64,000 nt of DNA from a phage. Every line of letters starts with the position of its first letter. Position 1 is the stretch's first letter. The notes under the pieces were generated by a model, which did not search any database, was not told the origin of the DNA, and saw nothing but the letters and a program-made list of their open reading frames with translations. The translations under genes and the position numbers were made by a program. The DNA lies in the sequence record OZ335962.1, one strand, 5' to 3'. Positions 39,771-47,173 of the stretch are shown in pieces.

Positions 39771-40187
39771 TTAAATGTAAATATTTTTGCCGTAGTATTT
39801 ATACCAGTGTGGCTTCATTAAAATTTTTTCATCGAGTCGTTGTTGACTCAATTTAATAGCCGATTTGCATTGGTTATAATCATTTTTCCATTCTGCTGGA
39901 ATATCGCTGATGTCAGGAACTTCAGTATCTTTTATACTAAACCCACGTTTTAAGCATTCCGCTATAATGTCTGATTGACGCTTTCGCAAAAATTCTAACT
40001 TATCATAAAAGAACGTAACATGACCAGAACCTAAAATAAACTCGGAAGATATTTTAAAATCTTTAACCCGCTTACCATTTGCCACATGTTTACGAACTAT
40101 ACCAAAAACACGTGGCAATTCACGGTATTCTGCGATTAAATGTTGATCAGCAAGTTCAGATACTAAAGTCAAATTAATACGAGTCAT
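39771..40187 (-). CDS. denV: endonuclease V (pyrimidine dimer DNA glycosylase)
   Basis: 138 aa, matches recalled T4 endonuclease V ([33 protein letters not shown]..). Confidence 0.93.
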
Positions 40188-44483: not shown

Positions 44484-44514
44484 AAAAAGCCCCAACCTTT
44501 TGGTCGGGGTTAAG
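44484..44514 (-). terminator. intrinsic terminator downstream of the ip-like gene
   Basis: CCCCGACC/GGTTGGGG stem followed by TTTTTGG on the minus strand. Confidence 0.6.
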
Positions 44515-44518
44515 AATG

Positions 44519-44992
44519 TTATTTGATTTGTTTAGCAGACCAAATGCGGTCTTTAATAATTTTTTGAATGTCTTCAACATACTCAAGAGAGTGAACGTGT
44601 GGATTATCTTTGAAACTATAAGCACGGGCTAACTTTTGGCCTTCGGTTTTGATTACTAAAAGCTCTTTAAGGATAGCTTCATATTTAGCGATAATTCCTT
44701 TAACGATATTTTTTTCTTGTGCCGCTTTAGGATCTGCTTTAGGAGCAGGTTTACCCGAAGGCTTTGCAAAAGCAGCTCCAGTAGCAACTAAACTTTTCCA
44801 GGCCATACTAACTGCATTTCCCGTAAATCCTTCTGCTTTCATGTCGCGAGCAAATTGGAATCGTGATTCGTCAGAAGCATCTTTATAGGAATATTTACCC
44901 GCTGCAATGGCTGCTTTTGCGACAGCTTGAATTTCGGTGCTAGATGCTTCATTTAACACCGCTTCATTTAAAAATTGAGCATATGATTTCAT
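44519..44992 (-). CDS. internal-protein-like (CTS-bearing) protein
   Basis: 157 aa beginning MKSYAQFLNEA (CTS-like); flanked by near-identical terminator hairpins and preceded by a TATAAATA late promoter. Confidence 0.6.
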   Translation of the reverse strand: MKSYAQFLNEAVLNEASSTEIQAVAKAAIAAGKYSYKDASDESRFQFARDMKAEGFTGNAVSMAWKSLVATGAAFAKPSGKPAPKADPKAAQEKNIVKGIIAKYEAILKELLVIKTEGQKLARAYSFKDNPHVHSLEYVEDIQKIIKDRIWSAKQIK

Positions 44993-45032
44993 CTTATTTC
45001 CTGTTTTAATTCGTGGATTTAATATACTACTA

Positions 45033-45040
45033 TATTTATA
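45033..45040 (-). promoter_or_regulatory. late promoter (TATAAATA)
   Basis: Minus-strand TATAAATA 41 bp upstream of the ip-like gene start at 44992. Confidence 0.5.
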
Positions 45041-45042
45041 CT

Positions 45043-45073
45043 AAAAAGCCCCAACCTTTCGGTCGGGGCTAAG
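45043..45073 (-). terminator. intrinsic terminator upstream of the ip-like cassette
   Basis: Near-identical copy of the 44484-44514 hairpin, followed by CTTTTTAG. Confidence 0.6.
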
Positions 45074-45075
45074 CC

Positions 45076-45376
45076 TTGCGGCAACCTTGTCGGGGTTCCA
45101 CCTGCTAAGGCAAGTGTTTGTACGAAACGCCGGGATTCGAACCCGGTTATTAAGTAGTTGACGCTACTCAATATTTTTAAAAGGCCATATCTCGACCATA
45201 TCCGAACGTTCCGTCAAAAACGCTACTCGGCTTACGGCAAAGATATTTCCTCGAATCGATAATTCGGTGCGCCGTTTCAGCTGTGATAGTAAAGAACCAG
45301 AACACAGTAAAACTGTGGGAGGAACTATACTCCAGGGAACATCAGTCCGACGACTTACCGGTAACGACCCGGTTTC
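45076..45376 (-). ncRNA. candidate stable RNA / tRNA-like element
   Basis: Non-coding 300 bp containing a perfect T-arm (CCGGG-TTCGAAT-CCCGG) and a possible acceptor pairing CGGAACG/CGTTTCG but no canonical cloverleaf; T4 encodes stable RNAs of unknown function near its tRNA cluster. Confidence 0.3.
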
Positions 45377-45727
45377 TTAATATTCTTTTAAAGTATCAAT
45401 CTGTTCACGACGTTTACGCCATAAATCAATTGCTTCATACGCAGATTCAGCATTTCTAATTAGTCGGCATTTGTGTAAAGACTTATGATTTTGATATTGT
45501 GTAGATAACGGAATTTTATCTAAAAGGTCTTTACGTTCAAAGTATTCATAACCATCTAAGCCAAATGAACGATTTTTAAGAAATTGCCAATGACCGTATT
45601 CGTTTTCGACATAAACATAATCTGCGTGCTGATAAAGCAAATTAATTACACGTTCAGAAATAACAGTGTCATTATGATTAAAATAGAATGTTAAATCATG
45701 AACTACTAAATAAACATTACCTTTCAT
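45377..45727 (-). CDS. hypothetical protein
   Basis: 116-aa ORF immediately downstream of tRNA-Arg. Confidence 0.45.
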   Translation of the reverse strand: MKGNVYLVVHDLTFYFNHNDTVISERVINLLYQHADYVYVENEYGHWQFLKNRSFGLDGYEYFERKDLLDKIPLSTQYQNHKSLHKCRLIRNAESAYEAIDLWRKRREQIDTLKEY

Positions 45728-45743: not shown

Positions 45744-45819
45744 TGGTCGAGGCAGTAGGGATCGAACCTACGACCCAGGACTTAGAAGGTCCTTGCTCTT
45801 CCTTCTGAGCTATGCCTCG
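45744..45819 (-). tRNA. tRNA-Arg (anticodon UCU)
   Basis: 76-nt cloverleaf folded by eye: anticodon loop CTTCTAA, T-loop TTCGATC, CCA encoded. Confidence 0.9.
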
Positions 45820-45823
45820 GATT

Positions 45824-45898
45824 TGGCGGACGTGATAGGATTCGAACCTATAACCAATCGCTTAACAGGCGATCGCTCTGCCATTGAGCTACACATCC
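45824..45898 (-). tRNA. tRNA-Asn (anticodon GUU)
   Basis: 75-nt cloverleaf: acceptor GGATGTG/CACGTCC, anticodon stem ATCGC/GCGAT, loop CTGTTAA, T-loop TTCGAAT, CCA encoded. Confidence 0.8.
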
Positions 45899-45902
45899 AA
45901 AT

Positions 45903-45989
45903 TGGTGGGGAGTGATGGAGTCGAACCACCCGAGTCGCAATGACAATGGATTTACAGTCCACACCGCTACCTCTACGGGATAACTCCCC
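45903..45989 (-). tRNA. tRNA-Tyr (anticodon GUA), class II
   Basis: 87 nt: acceptor GGGGAGT/ACTCCCC, anticodon loop CTGTAAA, long variable arm, T-loop TTCGACT, CCA encoded. Confidence 0.75.
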
Positions 45990-45998
45990 AAATTAATT

Positions 45999-46073
45999 TG
46001 GTGGCCCTGGGTGGAATTGAACCACCATCTGGCGATTATGAGTCGCTTGCTTGAACCTTCCAGCTACAGGGCC
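45999..46073 (-). tRNA. tRNA-Ile (anticodon CAU, AUA-reading type)
   Basis: Matches recalled T4 tRNA-Ile (GGCCCTGTAGCTGGAAGG...CTCATAATCG...). Confidence 0.9.
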
Positions 46074-46074
46074 T

Positions 46075-46150
46075 TGGTGCTGATTGACGGAATCGAACCG
46101 CCGACCTTCTCATTACAAGTGAGTTGCTCTACCTACTGAGCTAAATCAGC
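46075..46150 (-). tRNA. tRNA-Thr (anticodon UGU)
   Basis: Matches recalled T4 tRNA-Thr (GCTGATTTAGCTCAGTAGG...). Confidence 0.92.
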
Positions 46151-46155
46151 AAAAC

Positions 46156-46245
46156 TGGCGGAGGCGATAGGATTTGAACCTATGAGTCGCCGGAGCGACT
46201 GCCGGTTTTCAAGACCGGTGCATTAAACCACTCTGCCACGCCTCC
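46156..46245 (-). tRNA. tRNA-Ser (anticodon UGA), class II
   Basis: 90 nt with long variable arm; anticodon loop CTTGAAA. Confidence 0.88.
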
Positions 46246-46247
46246 AG

Positions 46248-46321
46248 TCTCCATACAAGGATTTGAACCTTGGACCTCCTGATCCCAAATCAGGCGCTCT
46301 ACCAAACTGAGCTACACGGAG
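46248..46321 (-). tRNA. tRNA-Pro (anticodon UGG)
   Basis: Matches recalled T4 tRNA-Pro; anticodon loop TTTGGGA; 3' CCA not encoded. Confidence 0.88.
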
Positions 46322-46331
46322 TAAATTAAAT

Positions 46332-46405
<74 letters not shown>

Positions 46406-46410
46406 AAATT

Positions 46411-46497
46411 TGGTGCGAGAAGTGGGACTCGAACCCACAAGGAAATCATTCCGCAGCATTTTAAGTGCTGTGCCTTTACCAATTTGACCATTCTCGC
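46411..46497 (-). tRNA. tRNA-Leu (anticodon UAA), class II
   Basis: Matches recalled T4 tRNA-Leu (GCGAGAATGGTCAAATTGG...). Confidence 0.92.
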
Positions 46498-46498
46498 G

Positions 46499-46571
46499 CT
46501 GGGAATAAAGGACTCGAACCTTTGCATCCTGGAATCAAAATCCAGTGCCTTACCAACTTGGCTAATTCCCA
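46499..46571 (-). tRNA. tRNA-Gln (anticodon UUG)
   Basis: Cloverleaf with anticodon loop TTTTGAT; abuts tRNA-Leu as a dimeric precursor; CCA not fully encoded. Confidence 0.88.
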
Positions 46572-46657
46572 ATTATTAACAAAGGCTCTTAAGCAAGAAC
46601 CCTTGATGATAGAGGGTATTAATCAGTGCGATATGAGTTAATAATAACAAATAATTC

Positions 46658-47173
46658 TTAAAGCAAATTAAACATTTTAACGGTCGGCAAAACAATTTCT
46701 TCTTCTATATAAGAGTATTTAACACTCTCAACTACACGCAAAAAATCATAATCATAATACTCAGAAGCATTACCTAAAATATTAATAAGTCCTTCAAGCA
46801 CTTTATTACCATTCACAAAAAATAAGTCAAATACACGTTCTTCATCTTCTTCAGATTTATTACCAAGATCAACTTCTATGCGAAAGACCTTTTTAATGAA
46901 TTCTGGATAAAGCTGGTCTGAGAACAGTCCTTCAACCAAGTATTCATAAATAAAAAGAGATTGCTCGCTGAACAAACCATTACCGCAATAGCGCTCAATT
47001 TTAGTACTAGAATATCTGCTTTTAAATTTCTTTAAAAGATACTGAAATTGTAAGATTTCATGCTCTTCTACGCCAAACAGTGTTTTAGTTTTATAGTTGT
47101 CACCATCATTTTCCCAGGTAGTGACATCAATTACGTAGCCCTGCGGAATTGTAGTACCTAAACAAATATTCAT
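46658..47173 (-). CDS. hypothetical protein
   Basis: 171-aa acidic ORF between the ip locus and the tRNA cluster. Confidence 0.5.
   Translation of the reverse strand: MNICLGTTIPQGYVIDVTTWENDGDNYKTKTLFGVEEHEILQFQYLLKKFKSRYSSTKIERYCGNGLFSEQSLFIYEYLVEGLFSDQLYPEFIKKVFRIEVDLGNKSEEDEERVFDLFFVNGNKVLEGLINILGNASEYYDYDFLRVVESVKYSYIEEEIVLPTVKMFNLL

What the first reader, a model, noticed from the sequence alone, without database searches (positions are those of the whole stretch)
45076..45376. Non-coding tRNA-like element with a perfect T-arm downstream of the tRNA cluster
The 300-bp gap between ORF 45377-45727 and the terminator at 45043-45073 has no convincing ORF but contains CCGGGTTCGAATCCCGG (canonical T-stem-loop) with a possible acceptor pairing CGGAACG/CGTTTCG about 90 nt apart and a 7-nt loop CGTCAAC closed by AGTAG/CTACT. 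It may correspond to the T4 stable RNAs of unknown function, a degenerate tRNA, or a tRNA-like regulatory RNA.
Basis: partly seen in the sequence, partly recalled or inferred. Interest (0 to 1): 0.5.

Follow-up and report, generated by a model that had tools for sequence, protein, structure and literature searches.

The report
T4-type stable RNAs rnaC and rnaD
The flagged gap holds this T2/T4-like phage's copies of two small stable RNAs known since the 1970s, rnaD and the tRNA-like rnaC, which are made from the tail of the tRNA operon; they are ordinary for such phages, although their function is still unknown.

Summary
The window is a Tequatrovirus (T2/T4-like) genome, and its tRNA cluster lies on the minus strand. 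The 300-bp "gap" aligns to the two misc_RNA genes annotated in T4. The rnaC (species 1 RNA) homolog is at window 45259..45121 and matches T4 at 138 of 139 bases. The rnaD (species 2 RNA) homolog is at about 45380..45266; its ends are conserved and its middle has diverged. A conserved trailer and an intrinsic terminator follow.

The perfect T-arm (45146..45130) is real and belongs to rnaC. Twenty-one homologs from eight or more phage genera support a tRNA-like four-way junction.

The conserved loop is 6 nt (CGUCAA). It is exactly complementary to a second conserved loop (UUGACG). Marfaviruses changed both loops together (UUGGCG/CGCCAA), which argues for an intramolecular kissing loop.

Default ARAGORN finds no tRNA here and no Rfam family reaches its threshold, because Rfam has no family for this RNA. 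No conserved ORF was seen.

Papers from 2010 to 2025 still call the function unknown. My best guess is a tRNA mimic matured by tRNA-processing enzymes.

Verdict: a real feature that is already known.

The parts
45266..45380 (-). rnaD (species 2 RNA) homolog. It has a conserved 5' block, a diverged central hairpin and a conserved 3' block ending ...GGCGCACC. The 5' end is uncertain here, because the conserved sequence starts at the last base of the stop codon of the upstream 116-aa ORF.
   Evidence: Alignment to T4 rnaD maps T4 positions 4-119 to window 45377..45266. The thermodynamic signal is weak (z = -0.63).
45357..45373 (-). rnaD 5' hairpin ACCGG-GUCGUUA-CCGGU: a 5-bp stem with a 7-nt loop.
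   Evidence: The stem is invariant in 5 homologs and is present in the MFE and centroid folds.
45303..45317 (-). rnaD central hairpin CACAGUUUUACUGUG. Position 45305 is the site of the convergent SNP reported in phage BW-1.
   Evidence: PMC12685909.
45260..45265 (-). 6-nt spacer GAAUUA between rnaD and rnaC.
   Evidence: In other genera the equivalent 4-6 nt separate rnaC from the CCA of a tRNA.
45121..45259 (-). rnaC (species 1 RNA) homolog, 139 nt by the T4 annotation. The conserved module continues to 45118 (…GUACAA).
   Evidence: 138 of 139 bases match T4 rnaC. The own covariance model R1 scores 148.9 bits here and finds no other convincing copy in the window (this sequence is in the model). 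MFE is -50.2 kcal/mol, z = -4.93.
45252..45258 (-). rnaC acceptor-like stem, 5' strand CGAUUCG. It pairs with 45129..45123.
   Evidence: The third pair is A-U in the T4 group and G-C in 19 other homologs. Two U-U oppositions are invariant. Forcing this stem gives the MFE or within 4.4 kcal/mol of it in all 21 homologs.
45182..45251 (-). rnaC long composite arm (P2-P6), capped by the loop UUGACG at 45217..45212. The conserved unpaired GG is at 45186..45185.
   Evidence: The P6 stem has 5 pairs with changes on both sides, and its sequence is entirely different in the PEi20, KaAlpha and Marfa types. Loop conservation is tabulated.
45148..45173 (-). rnaC 10-bp hairpin (P7) with the 6-nt loop CGUCAA at 45163..45158.
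   Evidence: 8 of 10 pairs show changes on both sides across 21 homologs. The loop is invariant apart from the Marfavirus U-to-C change, which is matched by an A-to-G change in the other loop.
45130..45146 (-). rnaC T-arm CCGGG-UUCGAAU-CCCGG.
   Evidence: It is unique in the window. The middle pair covaries as U-A, G-C and A-U.
45123..45129 (-). rnaC acceptor-like stem, 3' strand CGUUUCG, followed by the tail UACAA (45122..45118).
   Evidence: Marfavirus homologs read UCCAA at the tail.
45071..45117 (-). Conserved 3' trailer with three small hairpins.
   Evidence: Fold with z = -4.08. The same sequence follows rnaC in T4 and follows rnaD directly in Dhakavirus.
45041..45070 (-). Intrinsic terminator of the tRNA/stable-RNA transcription unit.
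   Evidence: 10-pair stem with 7 G-C pairs, GAAA loop and U-run.

Best explanation
The interval encodes, on the minus strand, this phage's orthologs of the T4 stable RNAs rnaD (species 2) and rnaC (species 1). They form the distal part of the tRNA transcription unit and end at the terminator at 45070..45047.

The T-arm belongs to rnaC. rnaC folds as a tRNA-like four-way junction with four elements:
- a 7-bp acceptor-like stem made from its own 5' and 3' ends, with two invariant U-U oppositions;
- a canonical 5-bp T-arm stacked on that stem;
- a long composite arm in the place of the D-arm;
- a 10-bp arm in the place of the anticodon arm.

The 6-nt loops of the last two arms (UUGACG and CGUCAA) pair with each other as an intramolecular kissing loop.

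Inferred, not shown here: the acceptor/T-arm minihelix lets the host tRNA-maturation enzymes excise and stabilise rnaC. These would be RNase P at the 5' end and 3' trimming, possibly with CCA repair and T-loop modification. This fits other genera, where rnaC sits between tRNA genes.

The function has not been established experimentally. My preferred reading, at roughly 0.25, is a tRNA mimic that binds or titrates a tRNA-recognising host or phage factor. rnaD is a separate, less structured RNA whose central hairpin appears to matter on some hosts.
For: Identity:
- 733 phage records match the region, almost all of them T4-like phages of Escherichia, Shigella, Yersinia and related hosts.
- T4 NC_000866 annotates rnaD and rnaC directly after tRNA-Arg.
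- rnaC matches at 138 of 139 bases. rnaD matches at both ends.
- rnaC occurs in 711 phage records, 418 of them at >=99% identity.

Context:
- 10 tRNAs lie on the minus strand immediately upstream, and a terminator lies downstream.
- In Kagamiyamavirus, Moonvirus, Karamvirus, Winklervirus and Gelderlandvirus, rnaC homologs lie a few nt after one tRNA and 1-9 nt before the next.

Structure:
- The MFE fold equals the proposed fold, with z = -4.93.
- On 13 sequences, 92% of cells pair and 20 pairs change on both sides; 0 of 500 shuffles reach this, and slid controls pair at about 40%.
- On 21 sequences the core has 16 pairs with changes on both sides.
- Forcing the 5'-end/3'-end stem costs 0-4.4 kcal/mol.

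Kissing loop:
- All 6 pairs form in 21 of 21 sequences.
- The loops are invariant although both stems are rewritten.
- Four Marfavirus sequences carry A-to-G in loop 1 together with U-to-C in loop 2.

Independence of the two RNAs: Dhakaviruses keep rnaD and the trailer but lack rnaC precisely. The homologs from other genera carry rnaC in place of rnaD after a tRNA or an ORF.

Expression: T4 RNAC and RNAD were classified as late RNAs and validated by northern blot. The riboprobe sequence given for RNAC is identical to window 45259..45203 (PMC9697503).

rnaD: the convergent T-to-C SNP selected in phage BW-1 on host ECOR34 (PMC12685909) maps to window 45305. It restores a C-G pair in the rnaD central hairpin, and the window already carries that allele.
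Against: - No function is shown. Reviews and recent papers state that the roles are unknown (PMC3014915; PMC9697503; PMC12685909).
- The mature ends in this phage are not measured. The T4 annotation leaves 1 nt 5' and 2 nt 3' of my 7-bp stem, so the exact RNase P site and any CCA addition are open. The tail reads UACAA rather than NCCA, except in Marfavirus (UCCAA).
- The kissing-loop covariation rests on a single clade, so probably one evolutionary event. The long arm (about 25 bp) and the 10-bp arm are unequal, so the contact needs bending. In some homologs the two loop regions can also form one extended duplex in pseudoknot-free folds.
- Two invariant U-U oppositions weaken the acceptor-like stem, which pairs in only 71% of cells.
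- rnaD has no significant folding-energy signal.
- Processing by RNase P and related enzymes rests on my recollection of the 1970s-80s T4 literature, which I could not open here.
Confidence: 0.88

Rival explanations
1. The 3' 95 nt (45214..45120) are a degenerate class II tRNA, or pseudo-tRNA. Its acceptor stem would be ACGGAACG/CGUUUCGU, with a D-arm UCGG/UCGA, a poor anticodon stem, a long variable arm (the CGUCAA hairpin) and the T-arm.
For: - Infernal aligns exactly this interval to tRNA-Sec, though at only 17 bits against a threshold of 47, E = 2.3.
- ARAGORN at relaxed thresholds calls a tRNA with an undetermined 4-base anticodon at 45120..45214.
- The annotators of phage KKP_3262 called the equivalent 96 nt tRNA-Phe(gaa).
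- 86.5% of cells pair in this alternative stem.
Against: - Default ARAGORN and Rfam tRNA find nothing.
- The pair at columns 49-138 is A opposite C in 10 of 13 sequences, and the stem has no compensatory change.
- Its 5' strand is instead engaged in hairpin P6, which has 4-5 compensated pairs.
- KaAlpha-, PEi20- and Marfa-type homologs lack the D-arm sequence altogether.
- Forcing this stem costs 6-23 kcal/mol relative to the MFE in all 21 homologs.
- It may still describe the evolutionary origin of the element.
Confidence: 0.07
2. rnaC, and/or rnaD, is a trans-acting base-pairing regulatory RNA. The invariant exposed loops (CGUCAA and UUGACG) would be seeds for phage or host mRNAs rather than partners of each other.
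For: - Both loops are invariant across genera while their stems drift.
- RNAC and RNAD accumulate late in infection (PMC9697503).
- A SNP in rnaD changes virulence on one host (PMC12685909).
Against: - The two loops are exact complements of each other, and they changed together in Marfavirus. Two independent seeds would not be expected to do this.
- A 6-nt seed has very little specificity.
- A 2010 review states that no trans-acting regulatory small RNA had been functionally characterised from T4 (PMC3014915).
- I did not run a target search.
Confidence: 0.08
3. The gap encodes one or more small proteins, and the RNA-like features are incidental.
For: - Mechanical ORFs exist: 42 aa (45305..45177, GTG), 50 aa (45171..45019, TTG) and 24-58 aa on the plus strand.
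- Many GenBank records annotate 'hypothetical protein' over this region, and Marfavirus records call a 45-aa CDS inside the element.
Against: - There is no ATG start.
- The ORFs run across the boundaries of two independently present or absent modules, or into the terminator.
- Homologs differ by 1- and 2-nt indels and by paired compensatory substitutions, which is an RNA pattern and not a codon pattern.
- In other genera the element is flanked within 1-9 nt by tRNAs.
- The curated T4 reference annotates RNAs and no CDS here.
Confidence: 0.02
4. The sequences are only passive processing spacers or operon trailers, kept because they help mature the neighbouring tRNAs. They would have no role as free RNAs.
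For: - rnaC always sits in or at the end of a tRNA array.
- By my recollection of the older literature, the T4 tRNA region is dispensable on laboratory hosts.
Against: - rnaC is 138/139 identical between T4 and this phage, while the adjacent rnaD core and the gene content have diverged.
- It keeps two invariant loops and more than 15 compensated pairs across eight or more genera.
- Dhakaviruses lack it without losing tRNA-Arg or rnaD.
- It accumulates as a discrete stable RNA (PMC9697503).
Confidence: 0.05

Closest known systems
Bacteriophage T4 rnaC (species 1 RNA; misc_RNA T4s001, NC_000866 70908-71046)
   Same: 138 of 139 bases are identical. It has the same strand and order (rnaD, 6-nt spacer, rnaC, trailer, terminator) at the distal end of the tRNA cluster.
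   Different: There is one substitution (C in the window, U in T4, in the long arm). The upstream context differs: a 116-aa ORF separates tRNA-Arg from rnaD here, whereas T4 has tRNA-Arg abutting rnaD and carries segB. This is the T2L-type arrangement described in PMC2330249.
Bacteriophage T4 rnaD (species 2 RNA; misc_RNA T4s002, NC_000866 71053-71171)
   Same: The 5' block of about 40 nt (AGAAACCGGGUCG.UACCGGUAAGUCGUCGGACUGAUG) and the 3' block (AUCACAGC.GAAACGGCGCACC) are conserved, and the position is the same.
   Different: The central ~50 nt are replaced by a different hairpin, the T2/BW-1/IME341 type. The 5' end cannot be set by tRNA-Arg 3' processing as it is in T4.
Canonical and class II tRNAs, including tRNA-Sec (Rfam RF00005, RF01852)
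   Same: It shares the canonical T-arm with a UUCGAAU loop, a 7-bp terminal stem abutting the T-stem, a four-way junction and a position inside tRNA arrays in several genera.
   Different: There is no 7-nt anticodon loop. The D-arm is replaced by an arm of about 70 nt. There are two U-U oppositions in the acceptor-like stem, and no encoded CCA in most genera. Scores are far below family thresholds.
tRNA-like domain of tmRNA, bacterial YrlA/Y-RNA-like RNAs and viral 3' tRNA-like structures
   Same: The general idea is shared: an acceptor/T-arm mimic embedded in a larger RNA, which lets tRNA enzymes recognise a non-tRNA. This comparison rests on general knowledge.
   Different: There is no tmRNA call and no tag ORF at default settings. 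YrlA (RF02553) and every other Rfam family fail to hit rnaC or five homologs. The third acceptor pair is A-U or G-C, not the G-U that I recall as the alanine identity element of tmRNA. These are analogies, not membership.

Membership tests
T4 rnaC (species 1 RNA) | Sequence homology to the annotated T4 rnaC over its full length | tested here: met
   138 of 139 bases identical, window 45259..45121.
T4 rnaC (species 1 RNA) | Location at the distal end of the tRNA cluster, same strand, before the operon terminator | tested here: met
   tRNAs at 45744-46571 on the minus strand. Terminator at 45070..45047. T4 map.
T4 rnaC (species 1 RNA) | Accumulates as a discrete stable RNA of about 140 nt in infected cells | not testable with these tools
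   Shown for T4 by northern blot (PMC9697503), with a probe sequence identical to window 45259..45203. Not measured for this phage.
T4 rnaD (species 2 RNA) | Sequence homology to the annotated T4 rnaD | tested here: met
   The 5' ~40 nt and 3' ~27 nt are conserved, and the centre is diverged with indels. The same variant occurs in T2, BW-1 and IME341.
Canonical tRNA (RF00005 / ARAGORN) | Detection at family threshold: cloverleaf with a 7-nt anticodon loop | tested here: not met
   No ARAGORN call at default. No RF00005 hit. The best clan hit is tRNA-Sec at 17 bits against 47, E = 2.3.
Canonical tRNA (RF00005 / ARAGORN) | T-arm: 5-bp stem plus UUCRANY loop | tested here: met
   CCGGG-UUCGAAU-CCCGG at 45146..45130, with a covarying middle pair.
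Canonical tRNA (RF00005 / ARAGORN) | 7-bp acceptor stem formed by the 5' and 3' termini, followed by discriminator + CCA | tested here: inconclusive
   The stem has 5 Watson-Crick pairs plus 2 invariant U-U oppositions and one compensated pair. The tail is UACAA here and UCCAA only in Marfavirus.
tmRNA | tRNA-like domain plus tag-peptide reading frame; ARAGORN or Rfam detection | tested here: not met
   None at default. Only a spurious permuted call at -ps70.
YrlA / Y RNA-like (RF02553) | Covariance-model match | tested here: not met
   No hit on rnaC in the window or in 5 homologs at E<=1. The one weak YrlA hit lies on neighbouring tRNAs.

The most novel reading that the evidence does not exclude
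rnaC is a dedicated tRNA mimic. Its body is locked by a conserved intramolecular 6-bp kissing loop, and there may also be a D-loop/T-loop-like GG contact. It would act during late infection as a decoy or sponge for a tRNA-recognising host factor, for example a tRNA-targeting defence nuclease or a tRNA-processing or modifying enzyme. It would thereby contribute to host range, which would give a function to an RNA that has had none for 50 years. The BW-1 reversion in the neighbouring rnaD suggests that this RNA pair matters on natural hosts.
Probability: 0.15. Interest if true: 0.7.

Novelty: already known. Interest (0 to 1): 0.3.

Why it matters
As a finding it is a rediscovery: the element is annotated in the T4 reference genome and its transcript has been seen on gels and blots. 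It matters in three smaller ways.

1. Most public T4-like genomes leave these RNAs unannotated, or cover them with 'hypothetical protein' or a false tRNA call. A covariance model would fix that.
2. The comparative fold derived here gives concrete mutations with which to attack a 50-year-old 'function unknown'. These features are the termini-to-termini acceptor stem, the kissing loops with one compensated change, and the modular presence or absence of rnaC and rnaD.
3. The only adaptive mutation found when phage BW-1 was evolved on ECOR34 turns out to restore a base pair in the rnaD hairpin that this phage already has. That hints at a host-dependent role.

Tried and rejected
- Rfam at gathering and at permissive thresholds, on the window and on five homologs, matched no family on rnaC or rnaD.
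- Default ARAGORN found nothing. Relaxed ARAGORN gave only a pseudo-tRNA with a 4-base anticodon, plus obviously spurious calls.
- There is no homolog in 5,426 complete E. coli genomes by blastn. A motif scan of 185,579 species genomes also found none. The element therefore looks phage-specific.
- A metagenome motif scan returned 11 chance matches and one true copy that duplicates a known phage. IMG/VR added only one new variant, L014.
- TATAAATA and sigma-70 scans found no convincing promoter directly upstream of rnaD or rnaC. The only late-promoter motif nearby lies downstream of the terminator.
- Literature searches for a function, for 'species 1 RNA' and for p2Sp1 found nothing beyond statements of 'unknown function'. 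The T4 genome review PMC150520 is not held. The original sequencing and processing papers did not come up in these searches.
- I did not search for base-pairing targets of the loops. I also did not test whether rnaC co-occurs with any phage protein.

Full report
**What the window is.** A 401-base query across the finding matches 733 phage records, nearly all of them T4-like phages of Escherichia, Shigella, Yersinia and related hosts. The best matches are KNP1 and KNP5 at 99.5%, and T2 at 98%. ARAGORN and Rfam both find ten tRNA genes at 45744-46571, all on the minus strand.

**Checking the observation.**
- The T-arm string CCGGGTTCGAATCCCGG lies at 45146..45130. It is the only match in the window even with two mismatches allowed, and none is expected by chance.
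- CGGAACG (45213..45207) and CGTTTCG (45129..45123) exist and are complementary.
- AGTAG (45168..45164) and CTACT (45157..45153) flank CGTCAA (45163..45158).
- The terminator is real: a 10-pair stem at 45070..45047 followed by a T-run.
- Only ORFs of 24-58 codons with GTG or TTG starts overlap the gap.

**What it is.** The T4 reference genome annotates two misc_RNA genes right after tRNA-Arg. These are rnaD (species 2 RNA, 119 nt) and rnaC (species 1 RNA, 139 nt).
- Alignment places rnaC at window 45259..45121 with 138 of 139 bases identical.
- rnaD lies at about 45380..45266. Its first ~40 and last ~27 bases are conserved, and its centre is replaced.
- A 6-nt spacer separates the two RNAs.
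- After rnaC comes a conserved trailer that folds into three small hairpins (z = -4.08), and then the terminator.

The arrangement is the T2L type described by Brok-Volchanskaya et al. (PMC2330249). It has no segB, it has extra tRNAs called Met, Tyr and Asn, and it has ORFs inside the tRNA region. One of these is the 116-aa ORF 45727..45377, whose stop codon touches the rnaD homolog.

**Distribution.**
- rnaC occurs in 711 phage records, 418 of them at >=99% identity.
- More distant searches found it in Kagamiyamavirus (EcS1), Moonvirus (KM16, NM4.3) and Kanagawavirus (ZX14, PEi20, Kosakonia 305).
- They also found it in Karamvirus (KaAlpha, myPSH1140, KKP_3262), Winklervirus (Kc304), Gelderlandvirus (Melville) and Marfavirus (EI, F48, VAC36, Marfa). 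Citrobacter phage Ursula, which has no genus assigned, carries it too.
- In several of these genera it lies inside a tRNA array. It starts 4-6 nt after the CCA of one tRNA and ends 1-9 nt before the next.
- Dhakaviruses keep rnaD and the trailer but lack rnaC exactly...GCGCACCGAA|CACUUGCC.... The homologs from other genera have rnaC without rnaD. The two RNAs are therefore independent modules.
- Nothing similar exists in 5,426 E. coli genomes, nor, by motif, in 185,579 species genomes.

**Structure of rnaC.** The minimum-free-energy fold of the window sequence is -50.2 kcal/mol, z = -4.93. It agrees with the RNAalifold consensus. The fold is:
- 5'-terminal CGAUUCG pairs with 3' CGUUUCG;
- a 3-bp helix leads into a long composite arm capped by a hairpin;
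- an A-rich linker follows;
- then a 10-bp hairpin;
- one base later comes the T-arm.

On 13 sequences, 92% of cells pair and 20 pairs change on both sides. None of 500 shuffles reaches this, and slid controls pair at about 40%. On 21 sequences the alignable core has 16 such pairs.

The terminal stem has one compensated pair, A-U in the T4 group and G-C elsewhere, plus two invariant U-U oppositions.

Relaxed ARAGORN picks it too, and so did the annotators of KKP_3262. It fails the comparative tests:
- it becomes A opposite C in 10 of 13 sequences;
- it has no compensated pair;
- it is absent in the PEi20, KaAlpha and Marfa types;
- it costs 6-23 kcal/mol relative to the MFE in every homolog.

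The terminal stem, by contrast, costs 0-4.4 kcal/mol.

**A kissing loop.** The 6-nt loop CGUCAA (45163..45158) is invariant, although 8 of the 10 pairs of its stem have changed. A second hairpin has a stem sequence that is entirely different in three lineages, and it always carries the loop UUGACG (45217..45212). The two loops are exact complements.

In the four Marfavirus sequences, loop 1 is UUGGCG and loop 2 is CGCCAA. This is one A-U to G-C exchange at the matching position. All six pairs form in 21 of 21 sequences, while slid registers give 15-46% over these pairs and the two GG/T-loop pairs counted in the same call.

I read this as an intramolecular loop-loop contact. Three caveats apply: there is one clade and so probably one event, the arms are of unequal length, and in some homologs the two regions can also form an extended duplex.

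A weaker hint concerns a D-loop/T-loop-like contact. The conserved unpaired GG (45186..45185) becomes CG in exactly the three homologs whose T-loop is UGCAUKC instead of UUCGAAU.

**rnaD.** A 5-bp hairpin (45373..45357) is invariant. A long-range helix (GUCGUCG with CGGCG-CAC) and a variable central hairpin are weakly supported by five sequences. Folding energy is not significant, z = -0.63.

In an evolution experiment with phage BW-1, whose tRNA region has the same layout as the window, one T-to-C SNP at genome position 164264 arose in all three lines adapted to host ECOR34 (PMC12685909). That position corresponds to window 45305. On the RNA strand the change converts CACAGUUUUACUAUG to CACAGUUUUACUGUG, restoring a C-G pair. 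The window already carries the restored allele.

**How it probably works.**
- *Shown here:* identity, gene order, the terminator, the conserved fold, and the placement of rnaC between tRNAs in other genera.
- *From the literature:* the RNAs accumulate in T4 infection and were classified as late RNAs (PMC9697503). Their roles are unknown (PMC3014915).
- *From my own recollection of the older T4 literature, not verified here:* they are cut out of the tRNA precursor transcripts by the host tRNA-processing nucleases.
- *Inferred:* the terminal stem plus T-arm forms a 12-bp minihelix that makes rnaC a substrate for RNase P and 3' trimming, and so makes it stable. The rest of the RNA forms a rigid, conserved surface. 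My preferred functional reading is a tRNA mimic that engages a tRNA-recognising factor, at a probability of about one in four.

No promoter of its own was found. MotA-box-like sequences lie upstream of tRNA-Gln.

**Comparison with known families.** The element is a member of the T4 rnaC and rnaD families by sequence and synteny.
- It is not a tRNA by any detector at normal thresholds, though it shares the T-arm and a terminal stem.
- It is not a tmRNA or a YrlA RNA.
- Rfam has no family for it, and none of five homologs scored at E<=1.
- A covariance model built here (R1) finds one copy in the window at 148.9 bits. That sequence is in the model, so the score is partly by construction. R1 finds no copy in the Dhakavirus loci.

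**Verdict.** The feature is real, correctly flagged and already known. The comparative fold and the reading of the BW-1 mutation are modest additions that make the old question of function more testable.

Noticed in passing
window 45305 (rnaD central hairpin 45317..45303, minus strand); L038 position 1806: The only convergent mutation reported when phage BW-1 was evolved on E. coli ECOR34 is T-to-C at genome position 164264 (PMC12685909). It maps to this base and restores a C-G pair in the hairpin CACAGUUUUACU(A>G)UG. The window already has the restored allele. BW-1's stock therefore looks like a hairpin-defective rnaD variant that reverted.
   Followed up: partly
window about 44490-45046 (minus strand): Relative to T4 there is an insertion of about 560 bp immediately after the rnaC terminator. 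It contains a TATAAATA late-promoter motif (45040..45033), a 157-aa ORF (44992..44519, phrog_2280, unknown function) and a second near-identical copy of the terminator hairpin (44509..44490). Both flanks align to T4. It looks like a gene cassette inserted by recombination at repeated terminator hairpins.
   Followed up: partly
window 45377-45727 (minus strand): A 116-aa ORF (phrog_3355, unknown function) lies between tRNA-Arg and rnaD, where T4 has tRNA-Arg abutting rnaD. Together with the tRNAs called Met(cat), Tyr and Asn, and the absence of segB, this is the T2L-type tRNA region (PMC2330249). That region is excluded by SegB homing in T4 x T2 crosses.
   Followed up: partly
window 45185-45186 and the T-loop 45135-45141; loci L004, L012, L013: The conserved unpaired GG next to the junction becomes CG in exactly the three rnaC homologs whose T-loop is UGCAUGC or UGCAUUC instead of UUCGAAU (ZX14, MY742, Kc304). 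This gives G-U to C-G with T-loop position 55. It may be a D-loop/T-loop-like tertiary contact, but it rests on one or two events.
   Followed up: partly
loci L027, L028, L029 (Dhakavirus IME341, AnYang, MX01): These phages keep tRNA-Arg, rnaD, the trailer and the terminator, but lack rnaC with a clean junction (...GCGCACCGAA|CACUUGCC...). Their rnaD central regions are of several different types.
   Followed up: yes
window 45071-45117 (minus strand): The stretch between rnaC and the terminator is conserved in T4 and in Dhakavirus. It folds into three small hairpins, one with a GCAA loop; z = -4.08 for the stretch including the terminator. Its role is unknown.
   Followed up: no
window 45220-45228 and 45161-45169 (minus strand): GAGUAGCGU occurs twice inside rnaC, once just before each of the two kissing hairpin loops. 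In type-2 homologs the 5' strand of one hairpin is also complementary to the 3' strand of the other. This suggests either a duplication origin or an alternative extended duplex.
   Followed up: no
loci L034-L037 (Marfavirus): The Marfavirus rnaC homologs end ...CGUUCCG-U-CCA-A, which is a discriminator plus an encoded CCA. All other genera read U-ACA-A, with U-AUA-A in ZX14 and U-ACA-G in Ursula.
   Followed up: partly
public records: Many GenBank phage records annotate one to three 'hypothetical proteins' across rnaC and rnaD, or a 45-aa CDS inside the element, or a 96-nt 'tRNA-Phe(gaa)' (KKP_3262). Only a few records (T4, RB27, ATK47) carry rnaC or rnaD features.
   Followed up: no
window 46575-46680 (minus strand): Two MotA-box-like sequences (TTTGCTTTA and TTGCTTA), each about 12 nt upstream of a TA-rich -10-like hexamer, lie just upstream of tRNA-Gln. 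They may be middle promoters for the tRNA/stable-RNA unit.
   Followed up: no
window 40004-40100 (minus strand): There is a weak match to the rnaC covariance model R1: 15.6 bits, E = 0.07. It is probably chance and was not examined.
   Followed up: no
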